Sequence record: PP761450.1
Length of the DNA: 64,000 bases
Strand: one strand, 5' to 3'
Source: Escherichia phage LHE287
The notes beneath the pieces were generated by a model, which was not told the DNA's origin, made no database searches, and worked only from the letters and a program-made list of their open reading frames with translations. Below are positions 3,262 to 37,531 of this stretch, piece after piece. Within the stretch, counting starts at the first letter, position 1. The number at the start of each line of letters is the position of its first letter. The translations under genes were made by a program, and so were the position numbers.

Positions 3262-4230
3262 ATGGCCGACTTCAAGAAGACAATCGATAAGATCAAGGTT
3301 CTGAACACGAAGGGATTGTCCCAGGCTCAGAAGCAATTGTCTTATCCCCTGGACGTCACTGGGGGTAAGACCTTGGGACACTATGTCCTATTCAACATCA
3401 ACCGTATCTCCGGTTCATCTTATGGCAACACGGCTACTCAGACTATCGAGAACCCAATACAGAACCCTCTGGGGAATACTCCTGTGGTCTATGGGTCCAA
3501 GTCTGGTTCCATCACCAAATATGCATGGGCGCGCCACGTTCGTTCAAACGAGTCTATCGTACTTTGTATGCCCGAGTCCATTACAACCAACTATGGTGTT
3601 GGCTGGAACGGTAGCGAGCTGGGGTTGGCTGGTATGGGGGCACAGTTCCTTTCCCGCGCCGCCCAAGACATGACTCAGTTTAAACTGGGTGATGCGCTCA
3701 ACGTCGGGAAGGAGATGGGGCGATTCGCTGCCACCAAGGCTATCCAATCTGCGTCGGAGGCTATTCCATTCCTGCCGAGCATTAACGCCCATGACACCCT
3801 TGAGTTGTTCACAGGCACCATGACCAACCCATATGTGGAGATGATCTTCCAGGGTGTTCGCAACCGTGAGATTCCATTTACATTCAAATTCACGCCGCGA
3901 TCTCAGAAGGAAGCCAAGATGGTCCGTGAGATCATCCGCATGTTCAAGATGCACATGTACCCAGAGTACAAGTACAACAAGAATTCCAGCGCGTTTTACT
4001 TGCATCCTTCAACATTCGACATTACGTTCATGGTCAATGGGGAGCGTAACCAGTGGCTGCACCGCATCTCCACTTGTGTGCTTTCCAACATGTTCGTCAA
4101 CGAGACGCCGGACAGTTCATATGCGGTTCACAAAGATGATGGTATCGTGTCCACGCAGGTTGACATGACCTTCATCGAACTGGAGCCTCTGCATAAAGGG
4201 CGCTTTGAAACCGAAGGCGATAGCTTCTAA
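3262..4230 (+). CDS. Virion structural protein, probably baseplate/tail-tube junction (gp48/gp54-like)
   Basis: 322-aa ORF heading a co-directional block that ends in a tape-measure-like gene; size matches T4 gp54; no enzymatic motifs. Confidence 0.5.
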   Translation: MADFKKTIDKIKVLNTKGLSQAQKQLSYPLDVTGGKTLGHYVLFNINRISGSSYGNTATQTIENPIQNPLGNTPVVYGSKSGSITKYAWARHVRSNESIVLCMPESITTNYGVGWNGSELGLAGMGAQFLSRAAQDMTQFKLGDALNVGKEMGRFAATKAIQSASEAIPFLPSINAHDTLELFTGTMTNPYVEMIFQGVRNREIPFTFKFTPRSQKEAKMVREIIRMFKMHMYPEYKYNKNSSAFYLHPSTFDITFMVNGERNQWLHRISTCVLSNMFVNETPDSSYAVHKDDGIVSTQVDMTFIELEPLHKGRFETEGDSF

Positions 4231-4241
4231 GAGAGGATGCC

Positions 4242-4796
4242 ATGAAATATTTTGAGAAGTTTCCACTTGTTTGGCATCAATTGCAAGATGTCCAAGAGAA
4301 TGATCAGGTGCTGTTACAGAATTTAACGCGCCGGGTGATGATCTTACAGAAAATTAAGGACATCGAAGGGCTTCTCCTGCCGTATACGATCCAAGATGGG
4401 GAAACCCCAAGGTCTTTCGCAGAACGCGTTTACGGATCCTTCGAGTTGTTTTGGATACCTTGTCTGATAAACGGCATCATGGACATCAATAAGGACTGGC
4501 CGAAACCGGAACGCCGTATTGTTGAAGAACTGACTGCAGATTACGGCATCGATGGTATGTGGGATACAGCCTATTATGTCGACCAGTTCAACAATGTGAC
4601 CGACGCCCGTGCTATCAAATTTGCATATAACCTAGACCTGGATGAACCGTCCATAATTGCTAACTATGGTCTGACGGCAGTTTCATATCATGATGATGCA
4701 ATCAGTAAGAATGAAGCCAAACGGAACATCCAAGTACTCGACCCAGATTATGTGTCTTCGTTTGTCAATCAGCTGGAGCAGGAGTTGGCGAAATGA
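4242..4796 (+). CDS. Baseplate-associated protein with LysM-like segment
   Basis: YTIQDGETPRSFAERVYGSFELFWI resembles the LysM-like motif of P2 gpX-type baseplate proteins; tightly packed with neighbours. Confidence 0.45.
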   Translation: MKYFEKFPLVWHQLQDVQENDQVLLQNLTRRVMILQKIKDIEGLLLPYTIQDGETPRSFAERVYGSFELFWIPCLINGIMDINKDWPKPERRIVEELTADYGIDGMWDTAYYVDQFNNVTDARAIKFAYNLDLDEPSIIANYGLTAVSYHDDAISKNEAKRNIQVLDPDYVSSFVNQLEQELAK

Positions 4797-6181
4797 TCGA
4801 AAACAGAGAGACCCAAGACGGTATTGTAACACCGTCAACAACATTTGACCTGAAGTATATGGCGATACTCCCTCATACACCCCAGGGTGGATCACCAACG
4901 CCATATGACCTGACGGCGTTGTTTGAGGAGTTCAATGTCTTCCAGGATCTGGGTCTTGAAGGGAAGTCATCTCCATCACTTACAGCCAATGTCTTGATAA
5001 AAGAGGGGTGGGACATTCTTGACACAATGCCTATCTTGGGTGGCGAAGAAGTTGTGGTGTCATTCAAGAGTCCGGCGGCCTCGGAATACACCACTCTCTC
5101 CCTGCGCGTAGCGCGTGTTGGGCGCGTAGCTGATGAGTCCAACAGCTCGTCCAAGAAAGCATTCTGGTTGCACATGGTGACCACCGATGCCTATAAGGAC
5201 AGCATGATCCGATGCTCCCTCGGTCTTGACGGTTCGTATTCTGACATGGCGAAGACAATCTTCAATCAGCTGGAGTCGCGCACCAAGTTCGAAGACATCG
5301 ACCCGTCATATGGAATTCAAGAGCGGTTCGCCACCCCTCTCTGGCCTGTGCTGCGATCTATTGATTATATGGCGAGCCGTTCTTATGACGAATTGTTCAT
5401 GCCATTCGTGTTCTATGAAGACTTCAATGGCTATCACTTCAAGAGCCTGACGACGTTGTTCAACCAGGGCAGCCAGTCATTGACAGCAGAAGAGAAGCAG
5501 GAACTAGCTCAGCAGAACAAGTTGTTCCGTGATCCTCAGGACGCGCCGCTCATGCAGGATAACAACTTCAACTCTGAGCGCTTTATGCGCACGATCATCA
5601 AGGCAGAGAAGAAGCTGGCGCGTGACCAGTTCATGGCAAACTACCGCGATGTCCTGGCGGTGAACGAGCGCGTCTACGACTTTGAGACCAAGACAGTCAC
5701 CCCAACACAGCGCATCTATACTGAGTGGTTTGCAGAGACGGCTCACCTTGATCCGTTCCCGATGTTCTCAGATGAATTCAATCGTCAGAACGTCCGTTAC
5801 ATTGAAGCCCAGCCGGATGGAGCGGAGCAGATTGATTATGCTCGTCGTGTTATCAACTTCAGTCTTGCCAGCACTGTGATGCGCGTGTTGCTCGTTGGTG
5901 ATAACCGCCTGAACGTCGGTCAGGTGTTCTACGTCGAAGACCAGTCCAACCGTCCTAAGAAGAACGAAAACTTGGCAGAGTTAAGTAAGCTATCGACAGG
6001 CCACTATATCGTGACCAAAGTGCGTCACAAGATTTCCCGCCTGACCAAAGATTATCAGTGCATCGCTGAGATTGCCAAGGACAGTTTGCTGGAGCAGGTG
6101 CTTCCACCTCAGACCAATCAGACAACTGCTTCCACCACTACTCCTCAGGCGATTGAGAAAGGCCAAGCACAGAAGGTTTAA
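4793..6181 (+). CDS. Baseplate hub protein candidate (gp27/gpD-like)
   Basis: 462-aa ORF overlapping the upstream gene stop; position between the LysM-like and tape-measure-like genes. Confidence 0.45.
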   Translation: MIENRETQDGIVTPSTTFDLKYMAILPHTPQGGSPTPYDLTALFEEFNVFQDLGLEGKSSPSLTANVLIKEGWDILDTMPILGGEEVVVSFKSPAASEYTTLSLRVARVGRVADESNSSSKKAFWLHMVTTDAYKDSMIRCSLGLDGSYSDMAKTIFNQLESRTKFEDIDPSYGIQERFATPLWPVLRSIDYMASRSYDELFMPFVFYEDFNGYHFKSLTTLFNQGSQSLTAEEKQELAQQNKLFRDPQDAPLMQDNNFNSERFMRTIIKAEKKLARDQFMANYRDVLAVNERVYDFETKTVTPTQRIYTEWFAETAHLDPFPMFSDEFNRQNVRYIEAQPDGAEQIDYARRVINFSLASTVMRVLLVGDNRLNVGQVFYVEDQSNRPKKNENLAELSKLSTGHYIVTKVRHKISRLTKDYQCIAEIAKDSLLEQVLPPQTNQTTASTTTPQAIEKGQAQKV

Positions 6182-6192
6182 CGAGGTGACCC

Positions 6193-8139
6193 ATGGCACA
6201 GGAAGCAACGAACAATGATGTTGTCAAAGTTCTAGACAAGATCAAGGCGGAGATGATGCAGCGCAAACAACTCCGCGCTCAGAATGAAACCAACAAACAG
6301 CTTGACCGGATGAACAAGAATCTGGCCAAGCTGGAATCTGCCACCAAACAGGGCACCAAGGCCGAGTCCAAGCCATTTGAAATCCGTATCCCGACAGTCA
6401 ATGAGATCGTCATGGGATTCGCTCGCATGTCTCCGATCTTCACCCGCGACTTCAGCGTATGGATGAAGGATACTGTCGATGTGGGTAACGAAGGCAATCG
6501 GGAACTGGAGAATATCGCAGGCAAGATTGACCGCCTCGGTGAGATCACCCGCATGCCAACAGATGACACGTCCCTAGAGTATCTTAACCTGATCTCAGAC
6601 CAGCTGAAGTCTGCCAATGATGACACCCTCAAGCGCATGGACGAGCAGAGTGTGTCTCTGGTCCGCGTGGGATCATTCTTGAACATGATCGACGGAGTGA
6701 TGATCGAGGTTCGTGACGATGTTGCTGAACTGAAAAAGAACTCCGATGCCACCCTTACTCGCTTGTCTAGCATTGAAAACAAGATTGGGCGCACGGGCGG
6801 TCATATCGTTGGAGTGCTGACACGCATCTTTGATGAAGACCAGAAGTGGCGTGAGAAGGACGAGATGCGCCGTGGGGAAACCGACAAAGAAACGGGTGGT
6901 CATCCTCAGGCGGGTTCTGTTATACCCAAAGACGATGACCAGAAAGACGATTCCTCCGGTATCGGGGCTGCTGTGGCGGCCATGCTTGGCCTGAATGCAC
7001 TGAAGGGCTTCTTGCTCAAGCCGTTCAAGATCATCGGTGGTGTTGTCGGGACTTTCCTCGGCATGTTCTCCAAGCTGGGAGAAGGTATCACCAAACTTCT
7101 GGGTCCATTTGGGAAGGTGTTCAAGTTCCTGAAAGTCGGCCCACTGGCTCTCCTGTCTATGATCTGGGACTTCGGTAAAGGCTTCATTGATGCGAAGGAG
7201 ATCCTGGGTAAAGGTGCTGTCACGATAGTTGACCGAGTACGGGCGGGGATATCAGAACTGGTTGGTGGATTTGGTGATCTATTTGACTGGGTGTCCAAGA
7301 TCTTTGGCTTTGATACCGAGGCGGGTGAAACCCTGCGCAAATACACCCTCATGATCACTGAGGCTCCCGCTCGTTGGCTGAATGGTATTATCGACTGGAT
7401 TAGCAACGACTTGTTTGCAGGGATCGGGAGAGACACGTCTCTTACGGATATCCCTGGCAAGTTAGCAGACAACCTACAGTCCGAGTTGATAAAGCTGGTA
7501 GACTGGATCACAGGGGGTATCAGTAGTGTGATCGACGAGGGCATGGGTGTGGCCAACAAGGTCATTGACGAAATCAAGAAGGGATTTGCCGAAAATGTGA
7601 AGAAACCTTTCTTCAACATGCTGAACACAATCACCAATGCGATGTTCGATATCGTTGACAAGTTCGTCAGCATCATCCCTGACGCTCTGGGTGGACAGGC
7701 TGCGAAGCAGAAGATGGATGAGGCTCGCCAGTCTATGCTGATTGACACTGATGAGAATCCGTCTCCTAATGTGACAGAGACCCAGCAGCCACAGACGCCA
7801 GCACAACCGAACATCGATCCACAAACGCTGACTCCAATACCTTCTGGTGCGTCTTCGGATGACAAGAATATGACTAATGACCGCACCTCTCAGCTGAAAG
7901 CTGCGTATGGTTCTATCGGGGGTGGTACTCTGGGTGGGGCCATGCCATCACAAGGGAGGGCGCTGTCTAATATTGAGCAAGTACAAGGCGGCTATTCACC
8001 GCCTCCGGCCAGCGTCGTGATGCCAGTACAGCAGAATGTGGATGCTTCTAAGAGGATCAACACGACCAATAACTTCAACAGCTCATATCTTGAGCCTGAG
8101 AACAAAACAGATAATTCCCGCATCCTGTGGGAATGGTAA
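6193..8139 (+). CDS. Tape-measure-like / baseplate hub protein (gp29-like)
   Basis: 648 aa; coiled-coil-rich N-terminus, Gly-rich hydrophobic core (GIGAAVAAMLGLNALKG...GGVVGTFLGMF), Pro/Gln-rich C-terminus. Confidence 0.5.
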   Translation: MAQEATNNDVVKVLDKIKAEMMQRKQLRAQNETNKQLDRMNKNLAKLESATKQGTKAESKPFEIRIPTVNEIVMGFARMSPIFTRDFSVWMKDTVDVGNEGNRELENIAGKIDRLGEITRMPTDDTSLEYLNLISDQLKSANDDTLKRMDEQSVSLVRVGSFLNMIDGVMIEVRDDVAELKKNSDATLTRLSSIENKIGRTGGHIVGVLTRIFDEDQKWREKDEMRRGETDKETGGHPQAGSVIPKDDDQKDDSSGIGAAVAAMLGLNALKGFLLKPFKIIGGVVGTFLGMFSKLGEGITKLLGPFGKVFKFLKVGPLALLSMIWDFGKGFIDAKEILGKGAVTIVDRVRAGISELVGGFGDLFDWVSKIFGFDTEAGETLRKYTLMITEAPARWLNGIIDWISNDLFAGIGRDTSLTDIPGKLADNLQSELIKLVDWITGGISSVIDEGMGVANKVIDEIKKGFAENVKKPFFNMLNTITNAMFDIVDKFVSIIPDALGGQAAKQKMDEARQSMLIDTDENPSPNVTETQQPQTPAQPNIDPQTLTPIPSGASSDDKNMTNDRTSQLKAAYGSIGGGTLGGAMPSQGRALSNIEQVQGGYSPPPASVVMPVQQNVDASKRINTTNNFNSSYLEPENKTDNSRILWEW

Positions 8140-28768: not shown

Positions 28769-28916
28769 TGTTTGAAACTGATTTATTATCCTACTTCGTG
28801 ATGTGTGATGAATTGAAGTTACACGGCTATAGCATATTTGAAATCAACGAGTCGATGCCATGGCATCTTGACTTGTTAACCGAAGCCCTCAAGGTCAGGT
28901 TGTCTAAGAAACAGTA

Positions 28917-28939
28917 ATCCCGCTTCGGCGGGATTTTTA
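28917..28939 (+). terminator. Rho-independent terminator
   Basis: ATCCCGC-TTCG-GCGGGAT hairpin followed by TTTTT. Confidence 0.6.
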
Positions 28940-28987
28940 TTGGCTTAACTGTAAAATCGGTTAACACGAACTTTCTTTACCTGAAAT

Positions 28988-28996
28988 TGCTATAAT
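28988..28996 (+). promoter_or_regulatory. Possible extended -10 promoter (TGCTATAAT)
   Basis: TGnTATAAT element in the long intergenic region upstream of the gp5-like gene. Confidence 0.3.
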
Positions 28997-29238
28997 GGGC
29001 TTGTTCCCGAGTTATTTGTTGGTGTTTGTCTGTTTTGAATCAGATTGTCAGTAAAATACCATTTTTCAAGGAGTGTTCTGGGGTGTACAGTTATTGCCTC
29101 GCCCTTATGCCTCCATGGCATTGGAATGGTGCTGCCCGCATAGGGCGGTTTGATGAGCGAAGCGAATAGGATCGAATAAAACAAATAAAATGAACGGAAG
29201 CAGAGCTTCCTATAGTATATAAGGCAAAATCAGCTGCG

Positions 29239-29246
29239 CATAAATA
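29239..29246 (+). promoter_or_regulatory. Possible late promoter variant (CATAAATA)
   Basis: 7/8 match to TATAAATA about 35 bp upstream of the gp5-like start. Confidence 0.25.
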
Positions 29247-29280
29247 CCTTCAAATCCTTGTTTGACAACCGGAATTCAAT

Positions 29281-30891
29281 ATGTTAGACAATATGAGATG
29301 GTTTTACGGCACCGTTGAAGATGTCAACGATCCAGACCAAAATGGGCGAGTTGCTGTTCGCATATATGGCGTACACACCGACGATCCCGTCCTCCTGCCT
29401 ACGGACAAACTCCCATGGGCGAAGGTACTGATGCCTGCTTCTAACGCCTCCTCTGCTGGTTTAGGTTGGTCTCCAACGGGCATCATTCCTGGTACTGAGG
29501 TTATGGGGTTCGCCCTTGACGAAGCATACCAGAATTTACGCATCACCTGGACTTGGACTGGTTCAAGTCCTACTGATGGTGCCGACACAAACCCACTGGC
29601 TCTCGGGCAGGTCGTTCAATCTGTAGAACGTCAGGCGTACAACGCCGTCACTGACGTTCCTGTGAAACAAGAAGACGAACCACAACCAGATCCACAACCA
29701 CCTGTTGGTGGGTATGATCCAGAGAAGTGGATGACAATCGCTCGTGGCGAATTAGGTATCAAGGAGTATGCCGGAAAGTTCAACAACAACCCGCGCATTA
29801 TAGAATATCACAAGACAACCTCCCTTGGTGCTTCTGAAGATGAAGTGTCGTGGTGTGCGGCGTTCGTGGGTTGGGTTATGATACAGGCTGGATACACGTC
29901 TACACGCTCCGCTCTTGCCCGATCTTACCTTACATGGGGCACTCCACTGTCAGCACCACAATATGGCGCTATCGTAGTCTTCCGGCGTGGTAACAACCCT
30001 ACATTTGGACACGTAGCGTTTGTGCAGAAGTTCGATGCAAACTATGTCTGGTGTATTGGTGGCAACCAATCCGATTCAGTGAAGGTCAGTCGTTTCAGAC
30101 GTTCTTCGGTCTTGGGATATCGTTGGCCTGGTCCTGCTAACACAGCCACAGCCGCGCCTGCGCAGCAGAATGGTAAATGGTCAGAACCTATCCCAGATCG
30201 TACTCCAAAGGAACAACCGACTCCGGCTCCTACTGGGCGAGTACAGGATATTGACAACACTGGAGAAACCATGGTTCCGGCTGCGGGTGGCTCCAAATAC
30301 CCGTACAATAACGTCATGGTGTCCCGAGCTGGGCATATTATGGAAGTGGATGACACCCCTGGTGGTGAACGTCTTCACTGGATGCATAAGTCTGGGTCTT
30401 ACAAGCAAATGTTGCCGGATGGTGATGTGGTCAACAAGTCCGTCAAAGACCACTATGACCTGACGATGTTCAACAAGCGTTATTATGTCGGCGGGGACCA
30501 CAACCTGACGGTCAAAGGAACTGAAGTTCAGCGCAAGACAGGTGAGGTCTATCATTTGCATTCCAACAACTACTCAAATGTGGTTGCGGGCACAGCGCTG
30601 ATGAAATTCAGTGACCTAGCGGAAATGCAAGCGCAGAATATTCTGCGCATTATCTGCGAGACTCTGGAGGTCGGCGGGACATTGAAGGTTCCTAAGATTC
30701 TAACGACTGAGATCATCGCTGACAAACTGACTGTCGCTCAGACGATCAATGGTAACATCATATATGCCGAAGGTGCTGGTCGCGCTTCTTCTCTGTCAGG
30801 TGCAACCCCTGCATCCCCTACGGGTCCGGGTGAGATTGACATCAAGGCAGAATTAAAAGACAATGGTGGTAATTTCGGCACCAAAGAGTAA
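29281..30891 (+). CDS. Baseplate central spike (gp5-like) with CHAP-like peptidase domain and C-terminal beta-helix region
   Basis: N-terminus WFYGTVEDVNDPDQNGRVAVRIYGVHT resembles the gp5 OB-fold domain; central Cys/His region (VSWCAAFVGW...PTFGHVAFV) typical of CHAP-like peptidases. Confidence 0.75.
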   Translation: MLDNMRWFYGTVEDVNDPDQNGRVAVRIYGVHTDDPVLLPTDKLPWAKVLMPASNASSAGLGWSPTGIIPGTEVMGFALDEAYQNLRITWTWTGSSPTDGADTNPLALGQVVQSVERQAYNAVTDVPVKQEDEPQPDPQPPVGGYDPEKWMTIARGELGIKEYAGKFNNNPRIIEYHKTTSLGASEDEVSWCAAFVGWVMIQAGYTSTRSALARSYLTWGTPLSAPQYGAIVVFRRGNNPTFGHVAFVQKFDANYVWCIGGNQSDSVKVSRFRRSSVLGYRWPGPANTATAAPAQQNGKWSEPIPDRTPKEQPTPAPTGRVQDIDNTGETMVPAAGGSKYPYNNVMVSRAGHIMEVDDTPGGERLHWMHKSGSYKQMLPDGDVVNKSVKDHYDLTMFNKRYYVGGDHNLTVKGTEVQRKTGEVYHLHSNNYSNVVAGTALMKFSDLAEMQAQNILRIICETLEVGGTLKVPKILTTEIIADKLTVAQTINGNIIYAEGAGRASSLSGATPASPTGPGEIDIKAELKDNGGNFGTKE

Positions 30892-30964: not shown

Positions 30965-31345
30965 ATGAAAGAGTATAAAGATGTCGATCTGAAGTTCGGC
31001 ATGCATCCAGTGACCAAAGATGTCACCATGAAATCAGGTGTGTATGCTGTCTTACAATCCGTGCGGAATATCGTCATGTCTTCAGTCGGGGACTGGCCCA
31101 CTTATCCTGGGATCGGCGCGGGGCTTTATGGGCTGCTGGGTGAAAACACGACACCGACTATCCAGGTAGATGTGAAGAACAAAGTAGAGGACGCCATCGC
31201 CCTGTATGAACCCAGAGCAGAGGTAGAAGGAGTCACGGTGAGTCTGTCAGAGGATTACCATTCTCTGGGTGTGACCATCACATTCTATGTGGTCAACAAT
31301 CCAGATCCAATAACAGACACCGTGTGGTTGAAAAGGACGAATTAG
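30965..31345 (+). CDS. Baseplate wedge protein gp25/gpW-like
   Basis: 126 aa; GPW/gp25-family pattern (VLQSVRNIVMSSVGDWPTYPGIGAGLYGLL); directly after the spike gene. Confidence 0.65.
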   Translation: MKEYKDVDLKFGMHPVTKDVTMKSGVYAVLQSVRNIVMSSVGDWPTYPGIGAGLYGLLGENTTPTIQVDVKNKVEDAIALYEPRAEVEGVTVSLSEDYHSLGVTITFYVVNNPDPITDTVWLKRTN

Positions 31346-36718: not shown

Positions 36719-37531
36719 TTAACTGAAACTCTTGTATGCTGCTGCGAGCTTCTTGTCGTACTGGTTCTTGGCATACGCCGGACCATTATAGCGCCGTGCA
36801 AATTCAGACCAGTTCTTGTCCTTCAGAGCCTGCCAGAGCTTGGCGTCAGCCTTGATGAACTTCACGAATGCCATCAAATGAGCACGTTCTCCTGTCAGGA
36901 AGTCGTTGAACATCTCCTTGGCGTTGGCATATCCACAGACCTGGCAGTTGAATCCCATGATCTGGAAGAGACCGTAAGAGGCGCTCTCGTACGCACAATC
37001 CTCATCGATGTTGATGGCCGCATGAAGTCGATCCAACTCCGCGTCGCCTCCCGTGTACCCGCCTGCGGAAGGACTGACCAACGTCGGGTACATATGTCCC
37101 ATGGCATTCGCCCGAGCCTGTCCGAACTTCGCCATCAGCTTCTTATACATGATGTGGCGCTCAAATAATGTCTTGATCTTACCTGACTTGGTGAAGCCCG
37201 TACCGCGCGACTCAACCTGATTCACCGCCTTGACAGAGGCAAGGTCAACACCCAGATCATTAGCAGCATCAATCAGGTCTGACTCAGTTAGATGATCCTG
37301 ATGGGCGTCTCCGGCGTTGCGAATAGCATAGGAGGTCTTTGGACCTACGATACCATCAATGACAAGCCCCGCACCCGCCTGAACAGTCTTGACGGCGTTC
37401 TCTGTTGCCTTGCCAAAGATACCATCAGCGACGAGGGTGAAGCCGATTTTGTTGAGGCTATTCTGAAGTGCCTTCACTTCAGTGCCACGGTTGCCAAGTT
37501 TTAGAATGGCCATAAGAAAATACCTCCACAA
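36719..37531 (-). CDS. Endolysin: N-terminal peptidoglycan-binding domain plus C-terminal muramidase-type domain
   Basis: N-terminal PG_binding_1-like repeats (GTEVKALQNSLNKIGF...DGIFG); C-terminal block with GLFQIMGFN typical of phage N-acetylmuramidase endolysins. Confidence 0.75.
   Translation of the reverse strand: MWRYFLMAILKLGNRGTEVKALQNSLNKIGFTLVADGIFGKATENAVKTVQAGAGLVIDGIVGPKTSYAIRNAGDAHQDHLTESDLIDAANDLGVDLASVKAVNQVESRGTGFTKSGKIKTLFERHIMYKKLMAKFGQARANAMGHMYPTLVSPSAGGYTGGDAELDRLHAAINIDEDCAYESASYGLFQIMGFNCQVCGYANAKEMFNDFLTGERAHLMAFVKFIKADAKLWQALKDKNWSEFARRYNGPAYAKNQYDKKLAAAYKSFS

What the first reader, a model, noticed from the sequence alone, without database searches (positions are those of the whole stretch)
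29281..30891. Baseplate central spike carries a CHAP-like cysteine peptidase domain
The gp5-like spike has the N-terminal OB-fold region and a C-terminal region suited to a beta-helix, but the central enzymatic domain has the Cys...His pattern of CHAP/NlpC-P60-type peptidases (VSWCAAFVGW...PTFGHVAFV). T4 gp5 carries a lysozyme domain here, so this spike would cut peptide cross-links rather than glycan strands during penetration.
Basis: partly seen in the sequence, partly recalled or inferred. Interest (0 to 1): 0.45.

Follow-up and report, generated by a model that had tools for sequence, protein, structure and literature searches.

The report
Phage tail spike with peptidase domain
This is the tail-tip spike gene of a Vi01-like (Ackermannviridae) phage, in which a cysteine peptidase module that cuts cell walls replaces the lysozyme of the T4 spike; the reading is correct, but it was published for this phage family in 2011.

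Summary

It is not new. The window is a Vi01-like phage, and the protein is 100% identical to Escherichia phage vB_EcoM-RPN242 gp068. Kutter et al. 2011 described the same architecture for CBA120 with the same boundaries (CHAP/TIGR02594 at aa 150-282), and Hooton et al. 2011 listed it for PhiSH19.

Two qualifications apply. The bond cleaved (stem peptide, cross-link or MurNAc-L-Ala amide) is undetermined. Only aa ~337-443 are demonstrably gp5C-like; the last ~95 aa match nothing known.

The same OB+CHAP unit, without a needle, occurs in Sinorhizobium phage phiM9 and in metagenomic T4-like contigs. I found no enzymology for this spike. Verdict: real, correctly interpreted, already known, low interest.

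The parts
29281..30891 (+). Whole gene for the gp5-type baseplate central spike (536 aa plus stop)
   Evidence: ORF listing and translation. [quoted passage not shown] 100% amino-acid identity to RPN242 gp068.
29281..29559 (+). aa 1-93: N-terminal OB-fold domain (gp5N-like; in T4 this domain docks on the gp27 hub)
   Evidence: Pfam Gp5_OB 1.9e-12 and a weak Phage_base_V hit. Aligns to T4 gp5 residues 6-101 and to 9f4a residues 4-93.
29560..29727 (+). aa 94-149: linker 1, Pro-rich (9 Pro in 56 aa) with conserved islands (NPL, GQ, VK)
   Evidence: Orthologue alignment and composition. Low pLDDT in the full-length model.
29728..30129 (+). aa 150-283: TIGR02594 / CHAP / NlpC-P60-clan cysteine peptidoglycan hydrolase domain
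29854..29856 (+). Codon for Cys192, the predicted nucleophile (at the N-terminus of a helix in the model)
   Evidence: Invariant in 15 orthologues and in 79 TIGR02594 proteins (C53 in domain numbering). Helix 53-63 in the model.
30010..30012 (+). Codon for His244, the predicted general base (at the start of a beta-strand)
   Evidence: Invariant. Strand 104-112 in the domain model.
30064..30066 (+). Codon for Asn262 (GGNQS motif), the predicted third member of the triad
   Evidence: N and the following Q are invariant in both alignments. Its role as the third triad residue is inferred from its position after the next strand.
30130..30288 (+). aa 284-336: linker 2, Pro/Ala/Thr-rich (9 Pro in 53 aa), with the nearly invariant motif NGKWSEPIPDRTP. 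It occupies the position of the T4 linker between the enzyme domain and gp5C.
   Evidence: Any role in maturation cleavage or auto-inhibition is inference only.
30289..30609 (+). aa 337-443: gp5C-like segment, covering the start of the trimeric beta-helix. About five VxGxxxxx-type octads lie at aa 403-442.
   Evidence: phmmer alignment of aa 338-432 to T4 gp5 385-477 (2.6e-13) and of aa 337-416 to 9f4a 385-464. Octad layout.
30610..30888 (+). aa 444-536: C-terminal tail of unknown fold, ending in the invariant motif L-x-D-(N/T)-G-G-N-F (aa 525-532)
   Evidence: No Pfam or PDB match, even with a profile. Found only inside this orthologue family. Invariant motif, with a ~80-aa extension after it in some lineages.
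27848..28768 (+). Context: upstream baseplate hub gene (T4_baseplate PF12322, gp26-like). The annotated start in RPN242 corresponds to window 27962.
   Evidence: Pfam 6.4e-46. PHROG 150 'baseplate hub'. Annotation.
30965..31345 (+). Context: downstream gp25-like baseplate wedge gene
   Evidence: Pfam GPW_gp25 9.4e-08. PHROG 261/43.
36719..37531 (-). Context: the phage's exit endolysin, PG_binding_1 + N-acetylmuramidase (a glycan cutter). The entry and exit enzymes are therefore unrelated, unlike in T4.
   Evidence: Pfam PF11860 6.4e-59 and PF01471 8.8e-15. Annotated 'N-acetylmuramidase' in RPN242.

Best explanation
The gene encodes the trimeric central spike of the contractile-tail baseplate of a Vi01-like (Ackermannviridae) phage. 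It is built on the T4 gp5 plan. The N-terminal OB domain seats the spike on the hub under the tail tube, and the C-terminal gp5C-like intertwined needle pierces the outer membrane when the sheath contracts. In between sits a papain-fold cysteine hydrolase of the NlpC/P60-CHAP clan (TIGR02594 subfamily) in place of the T4 lysozyme. Its predicted triad is Cys192/His244/Asn262. Once carried into the periplasm, this domain is expected to open the peptidoglycan locally by cutting the peptide part of the murein. The most likely target is the stem peptide (gamma-D-Glu-mDAP). The mDAP-D-Ala cross-link or the MurNAc-L-Ala amide are alternatives. Cutting there would let the tail tube reach the inner membrane. 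Shown here: domain identities, their order and boundaries, catalytic-residue conservation, the fold, the baseplate gene context and the family distribution. Inferred: trimer formation, delivery to the periplasm, enzymatic activity, bond specificity, and any T4-like masking or activation by the linker and needle.
Against: The searchable literature holds no enzymology or structure for this spike or any orthologue. No characterised TIGR02594 member defines the bond cleaved. The full-length model is unusable (pLDDT 42), so trimer geometry and active-site accessibility are unknown. The last ~95 aa have no known homologue, so the needle tip may differ from T4. A PAAR/gp5.4-type cap and a gp27 homologue were not positively identified; only a PHROG 350 'tail protein' at 4793..6181 is a candidate.
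Confidence: 0.88

Rival explanations
1. The domain is an N-acetylmuramoyl-L-alanine amidase that strips stem peptides from the glycan, rather than an endopeptidase acting within or between peptides.
For: The Pfam match is to CHAP (cysteine, histidine-dependent amidohydrolase/peptidase), a family that contains both amidases and endopeptidases. The His-to-Asn spacing of 18 residues resembles CHAP more than classical NlpC/P60 (sequence). One related 43-kb phage gene is annotated as a putative amidase (H56).
Confidence: 0.2
2. The domain specifically cleaves mDAP-D-Ala cross-links (a DD-endopeptidase like MepS or Tae2/Tae3).
Against: Equal or better matches go to gamma-D-Glu-mDAP endopeptidases (LytE, CwlO, Acd24020). 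Fold similarity within this clan does not predict bond specificity.
Confidence: 0.25
3. The module is a structural or vestigial passenger that is enzymatically irrelevant to infection, and penetration is purely mechanical.
For: Some Gp5_OB spikes carry no enzyme domain at all (P0030, P0031, P0032, P0055). A published S-layer-penetrating myophage lacks enzymatic domains, according to the abstract of PMC11948020.
Against: The catalytic Cys/His/Asn and many surrounding residues are strictly conserved across orthologues whose linkers and C-termini diverge. This indicates selection on catalysis.
Confidence: 0.04
4. The middle domain is a cryptic lysozyme or lytic transglycosylase, as the database label 'tail lysozyme' implies.
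For: [quoted passage not shown]
Confidence: 0.01

Closest known systems
Ackermannviridae gp5 orthologues: Escherichia phage vB_EcoM-RPN242 gp068 (UHS65547.1), CBA120 gp5 homologue (537 aa), Salmonella phage Vi01 and PhiSH19 'tail-associated lysozyme'
   Same: The same protein family. The window protein is 100% identical in amino acids to RPN242 gp068 and about 84% identical to Vi01. It has the same OB / CHAP-TIGR02594 / gp5C architecture with the same boundaries as published in 2011.
   Different: Nothing of substance differs. The Dickeya, Erwinia and Serratia phage orthologues carry an extra ~75-85 aa after the DNGGNF motif, which this protein lacks.
Bacteriophage T4 gp5 (PDB 1k28), the tail-associated lysozyme and central spike
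   Same: Homologous N-terminal OB domain (aa 3-93 vs T4 6-101) and first half of the C-terminal needle (aa 338-432 vs T4 385-477). Both carry an enzyme module between long linkers at the same position and sit in a baseplate gene context.
   Different: T4 has a T4L-like lysozyme (residues 174-339; PMC4576200), whereas this protein has a cysteine peptidase fold. The distal ~95 aa are not recognisably T4-like, and Pfam Gp5_C repeats are not detected. In T4 the entry and exit enzymes are paralogous lysozymes, whereas here the exit endolysin is an unrelated muramidase. The T4 Spackle-type inhibitor targets the gp5 lysozyme surface (PMC7650644), so it would not be expected to act on this domain (inference).
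Short OB+CHAP spike proteins: Sinorhizobium phage phiM9 gp124 (290 aa, Pootjesviridae) and metagenomic P0024 (319 aa)
   Same: A continuous alignment from the OB domain through the linker into CHAP (39% identity, E=9e-56 and 5e-52). Pfam gives Gp5_OB + CHAP. P0024 lies directly upstream of a gp25 gene, as this gene does.
   Different: Both proteins end right after the CHAP domain, with no linker 2 and no gp5C needle.
Contractile-tail hub or spike hydrolases with NlpC/P60 or CHAP domains: diffocin CD1368 (8v3w_H), Staphylococcus phage phi812/K ORF56 hub CHAP (9euf_E), phage Andhra gp10 tail-tip lysin
   Different: These act on Gram-positive walls and are not built on the gp5 OB-plus-beta-helix scaffold. 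Sequence identity is only 13-18%.
TIGR02594 family proteins of bacteria and phages (T6SS VgrG-linked effectors, PG_binding_1 or GH108 fusions, small endolysins)
   Same: The catalytic module itself is up to 57% identical to a protein from a Blastocatellia MAG. The invariant C, H and GGNQ are shared. These proteins are used as T6SS effectors and as putative endolysins.
   Different: They are free-standing or fused to cell-wall-binding domains, not inserted into a spike.

Membership tests
T4 gp5-type baseplate central spike | N-terminal gp5 OB-fold domain | tested here: met
   Pfam PF06714 E=1.9e-12, 48.1 bits vs cut-off 25. Aligns to T4 gp5 residues 6-101.
T4 gp5-type baseplate central spike | C-terminal triple-stranded beta-helix (gp5C) with VxG octapeptide repeats | tested here: inconclusive
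   aa 338-432 align to T4 385-477 (2.6e-13), and about five VxG-type octads lie at aa 403-442. However, Pfam Gp5_C and Gp5_trimer_C are not detected, aa 444-536 are unmatched, and the monomer model is unusable.
T4 gp5-type baseplate central spike | T4L-like lysozyme as the middle domain | tested here: not met
   No lysozyme homology in any search. The label 'tail lysozyme' is a misnomer for this protein.
T4 gp5-type baseplate central spike | Encoded in a baseplate module and present in virions | tested here: met
   Flanked by gp26-like and gp25-like genes. Virion presence is known only for the ViI orthologue, from the literature (PMC3184105).
T4 gp5-type baseplate central spike | Homotrimer bound to a gp27-type hub, capped by a PAAR protein | not tested
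   No multimer modelling was available. A gp27 candidate (PHROG 350, 4793..6181) was not verified, and a PAAR gene was not searched for.
CHAP / NlpC-P60 clan, TIGR02594 subfamily | Profile match above the curated threshold | tested here: met
   TIGR02594 129.6 bits vs 70.55, covering profile positions 2-132 of 132. CHAP 43.2 bits vs 26.
CHAP / NlpC-P60 clan, TIGR02594 subfamily | Conserved catalytic Cys and His, plus a polar third residue | tested here: met
   C192, H244 and N262/Q263 are invariant in 15 orthologues and 79 family members. The assignment of N262 as the third residue is inferred.
CHAP / NlpC-P60 clan, TIGR02594 subfamily | Papain-like alpha+beta fold, with Cys at a helix N-terminus and His on a strand | tested here: met
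CHAP / NlpC-P60 clan, TIGR02594 subfamily | Peptidoglycan amidase or endopeptidase activity and a defined scissile bond | not testable with these tools
   This needs a muralytic assay and muropeptide mass spectrometry. No characterised TIGR02594 enzyme was found in the literature searched.

The most novel reading that the evidence does not exclude
The last ~95 residues (aa 444-536) have no detectable relative outside this orthologue family. They end in an invariant LxD(N/T)GGNF motif, and Dickeya, Erwinia and Serratia phages carry an extra ~80-aa module after it. These residues may form a spike tip structurally unlike the T4 beta-helix end with its PAAR cap. That would be a new membrane-attacking or receptor-sensing apex on a gp5 scaffold. 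In addition, the TIGR02594 module may have a bond specificity not yet documented for a virion enzyme of a Gram-negative-infecting tailed phage.
Probability: 0.25. Interest if true: 0.35.

Novelty: already known. Interest (0 to 1): 0.15.

Why it matters
It shows that the enzymatic 'warhead' of the gp5 spike is an exchangeable cassette: lysozyme in T4, a CHAP/NlpC-P60 module here and in phiM9-like phages, VgrG3-like or no enzyme in others. It also shows that the routine annotation 'tail lysozyme' is wrong for a large, therapeutically used phage family. A virion peptidase active on Gram-negative murein could be useful as an enzybiotic, and it would not be expected to be blocked by lysozyme-directed exclusion proteins such as T4 Spackle (inference). 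However, the architecture has been in the literature since 2011, so the only open value lies in biochemistry and structure, not in the discovery.

Tried and rejected
(1) The full-length AF2 monomer model from 15 orthologues reached only pLDDT 42 and pTM 0.30. It is unusable for the needle, the linkers or active-site masking.

(2) A profile of the domain alignment A2 searched against PDB sequences matched only the accessory GH108 and PG-binding domains present in other rows, not the catalytic domain. The fold search was needed instead.

(3) A profile of the C-terminal 102 aa gave only noise against PDB (E>=1) and nothing against Pfam. Against the 5.8-billion-protein set it found only two fragments of the same family.

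(4) An Rfam scan of the 340-nt upstream gap gave only sub-threshold hits overlapping the terminator hairpin. The sigma-70 promoter scan was not enriched over shuffles.

[quoted passage not shown] It is in fact PG_binding_1 + CHAP with no OB domain, i.e. endolysin-type, so I rejected it as a spike analogue.

(6) Literature searches for enzymology or cryo-EM of an Ackermannviridae central spike found none. The first search's 'CHAP' hits were 'chaperone' and 'CHAPS'.

(7) Lysozyme or transglycosylase identity was considered and rejected.

(8) A PAAR/gp5.4 cap gene was not searched for, because no suitable profile was available in the sandbox.

Full report
**1. What is at the coordinates**

An ATG-initiated ORF runs from 29281 to 30891 on the + strand and encodes 536 aa.

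The window comes from a Vi01-like myovirus. The gene is 99.4% identical in DNA to Escherichia phage vB_EcoM-RPN242 (Ackermannviridae, Aglimvirinae), and 121 phage records hold an orthologue detectable by megablast. The protein is 100% identical to RPN242 gp068 and about 84% identical to Salmonella phage Vi01 gp5.

**2. Domain anatomy**

- **N-terminus.** Pfam finds Gp5_OB (E=1.9e-12).
- **Middle.** Pfam finds CHAP (aa 187-262, E=5.7e-11), both above gathering thresholds. NCBIfam TIGR02594 matches aa 150-282 across the entire profile (E=8.7e-38, 129.6 bits against a cut-off of 70.55).
- **Flanks versus T4.** Against solved structures, T4 gp5 (1k28, 1pdl) and another T4-type spike (9f4a) align only to aa 1-93 and aa 337-432. 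The published T4 map is OB 1-129, lysozyme 174-339 and beta-helix 389-575 (PMC4576200). So the two flanks bracket the lysozyme position, and a ~134-aa cysteine-peptidase module sits where T4 has its ~165-aa lysozyme.
- **Linkers.** The two linkers (aa 94-149 and 284-336) are Pro-rich but contain strongly conserved islands, for example NGKWSEPIPDRTP.

**3. Whether the enzyme looks live, and what fold it has**

Cys192, His244 and Asn262-Gln263 (GGNQS) are invariant in 15 orthologues down to 59% identity. They are also invariant in 79 diverse TIGR02594 proteins from bacteria and phages.

An AF2 model of aa 140-300, built on that deep alignment, is confident (pLDDT 87.2, pTM 0.84). It places Cys at the N-terminus of a helix and His at the start of a strand, which is the papain-like arrangement.

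- **Foldseek against PDB.** The top hits are MepS, the C. difficile autolysins Acd33800 and Acd24020, and then the LysGH15 and LysK CHAP domains.

Structurally the domain sits between classical NlpC/P60 and CHAP, so 'CHAP-like/NlpC-P60-type' is an accurate description.

**4. The C-terminal third**

Residues 338-432 are clearly homologous to T4 gp5 385-477. In T4 this is the antiparallel start and first half of the helix, the part that contacts the enzyme domain. About five VxGxxxxx-type octads can be laid out at aa 403-442.

Beyond about aa 443 the repeat pattern dissolves. Pfam Gp5_C and Gp5_trimer_C are not detected, and a profile of the last 102 aa finds nothing in PDB or Pfam. In the large protein database it finds only fragments of the same family.

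An L-x-D-(N/T)-G-G-N-F motif near the end is invariant. Dickeya, Erwinia and Serratia phage orthologues carry a further 75-85 aa after it. The full-length monomer model is unusable (pLDDT 42). 'Suited to a beta-helix' is therefore only half verified.

**5. Genomic context**

Upstream lie a gp26-like hub gene (PF12322, 27848..28768), a 49-aa ORF, a strong hairpin-plus-T-run terminator (28916-28942) and a ~340-nt gap. Downstream is a gp25-like wedge gene at 30965..31345.

Other baseplate and tail genes are elsewhere in the window: gp48-like, gp53-like, a PHROG 350 tail protein and a tape-measure-like protein at 3262-8139.

The exit endolysin at 36719..37531 (-) is PG_binding_1 + N-acetylmuramidase. 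This phage therefore uses unrelated enzymes for entry (peptide-directed) and exit (glycan-directed), whereas T4's two enzymes are related lysozymes (PMC7650644).

**6. Distribution and modularity**

All full-length homologues (P0001-P0023) carry Gp5_OB + CHAP. A tblastn search with the domain finds it in 538 phage records. About 280 of these are Ackermannviridae orthologues at 60% identity or more. The rest are more distant copies in phiM9-like and Rhizobium phages, PhiW-14, ICP1 and various endolysins.

- **Short OB+CHAP proteins.** Sinorhizobium phage phiM9 gp124 (290 aa) and the metagenomic P0024 (319 aa) are OB+CHAP proteins. P0024 lies directly upstream of a gp25 gene. Both align continuously with this spike from the OB domain through the linker into CHAP (39% identity, E=9e-56 and 5e-52) and then stop, with no needle.
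- **ICP1.** Its 'gp5' (gp207) is actually PG_binding_1 + CHAP, an endolysin-type protein that is mis-annotated.
- **Other middle modules.** Other Gp5_OB proteins carry NlpC_P60, a VgrG3-like C-terminal domain, or no enzyme at all.
- **Closest catalytic relative.** The catalytic module alone is 57% identical to a protein from a bacterial MAG. This is consistent with the 'bacterial origin' remark in Kutter et al.

**7. Mechanism**

*Best-supported model.* A trimeric spike sits on the tail axis. Sheath contraction drives the needle through the outer membrane. The CHAP/NlpC-P60 domains then cleave the peptide moiety of the murein locally so that the tube can pass.

*Shown here.* Domain identity, domain order, conserved catalytic residues, fold and gene context.

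*Taken from the literature.* Virion incorporation of the ViI orthologue.

*Inferred.* Trimerisation, periplasmic delivery, activity, bond specificity and any T4-like masking.

*Bond specificity.* It cannot be read from fold similarity. The neighbours include gamma-D-Glu-mDAP endopeptidases (LytE, CwlO), a DD-endopeptidase (MepS) and CHAP enzymes that may be amidases. I rank stem-peptide endopeptidase first, then cross-link DD-endopeptidase, then amidase.

**8. Comparison with what is known, and novelty**

Kutter et al. 2011 (Virol J 8:430; PMC3184105), in the section 'Baseplate Lysozyme', state the following about the 537-aa CBA120 gp5 homologue. It lacks the usual lysozyme. It has a putative CHAP domain of the TIGR02594 family (NlpC/P60 superfamily) at aa 150-282. 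That domain is flanked by regions aa 3-109 and 334-437 shared with T4 gp5. These are the same boundaries found here.

Hooton et al. 2011 (PMC3220722) list the PhiSH19 orthologue as 'Gp5 OB family & CHAP domain'. Precomputed Pfam annotations on the public sequences say the same.

I found no enzymology or structure for the protein in the searchable literature. [quoted passage not shown]

**9. Verdict**

The finding is already known at the bioinformatic level. Interest is low (0.15). The modest residual novelty lies in the uncharacterised C-terminal ~95 aa and in the undetermined specificity of the TIGR02594 module.

Noticed in passing
window 28916-28942 and 28943-29280: A strong intrinsic-terminator-like hairpin (AATCCCGC-TTCG-GCGGGATT followed by TTTATT) lies right after the 49-aa ORF at 28768..28917. 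About 340 nt with no convincing ORF then precede the spike ATG. Rfam gave only sub-threshold hits overlapping the hairpin.
   Followed up: partly
window 30610-30888 (aa 444-536): The spike's C-terminal ~95 aa have no Pfam or PDB relative and occur only in this family. An L-x-D-(N/T)-G-G-N-F motif is invariant. Dickeya, Erwinia and Serratia phage orthologues (P0014, P0017, P0019, P0020, P0022, P0023) add 75-85 aa after it, ending in a conserved ...S(N/D)G..WE.. segment.
   Followed up: partly
window ~31387 and ~33341 (vs L001 11108-11369 and 13326-13624): Relative to phage RPN242, the window lacks two short segments of about 262 bp and 299 bp. They correspond to the small hypothetical genes RPN242_gp070 (partly) and gp074. 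These are small-gene indels between otherwise 97-99% identical genomes.
   Followed up: partly
window 36719-37531 (-): The exit endolysin is PG_binding_1 + N-acetylmuramidase (PF11860). It is unrelated to the spike enzyme, so the entry and exit murein hydrolases attack different bonds, unlike T4's paralogous lysozymes.
   Followed up: partly
L003 2279-2995 (Vibrio phage ICP1 gp207): [quoted passage not shown] It is an endolysin-type protein and is probably mis-annotated.
   Followed up: yes
L004 2072-2944 (phiM9 gp124); L002 6001-6960 (P0024): Gp5_OB + CHAP proteins of 290-319 aa end right after the enzyme and have no beta-helix needle. In L002 the gene is directly followed by gp25 and then by an 806-aa protein with a weak Glyco_hydro_19 hit. 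Where the needle function resides in these phages is unknown.
   Followed up: partly
proteins P0027, P0029, P0030-P0032, P0055, P0061: Other Gp5_OB spikes from metagenomes carry different middle modules (NlpC_P60; T6SS VgrG3-like_C) or none. P0061, in which no Gp5_OB was detected, has VgrG3-like_C with Glyco_hydro_46. This shows cassette-like exchange of the spike's enzymatic module.
   Followed up: partly
window 4793-6181 (+): A 462-aa PHROG 350 'tail protein' with no Pfam hit lies between the gp53-like gene and a tape-measure-like gene. It is a candidate gp27-type hub partner of the spike but was not verified.
   Followed up: no
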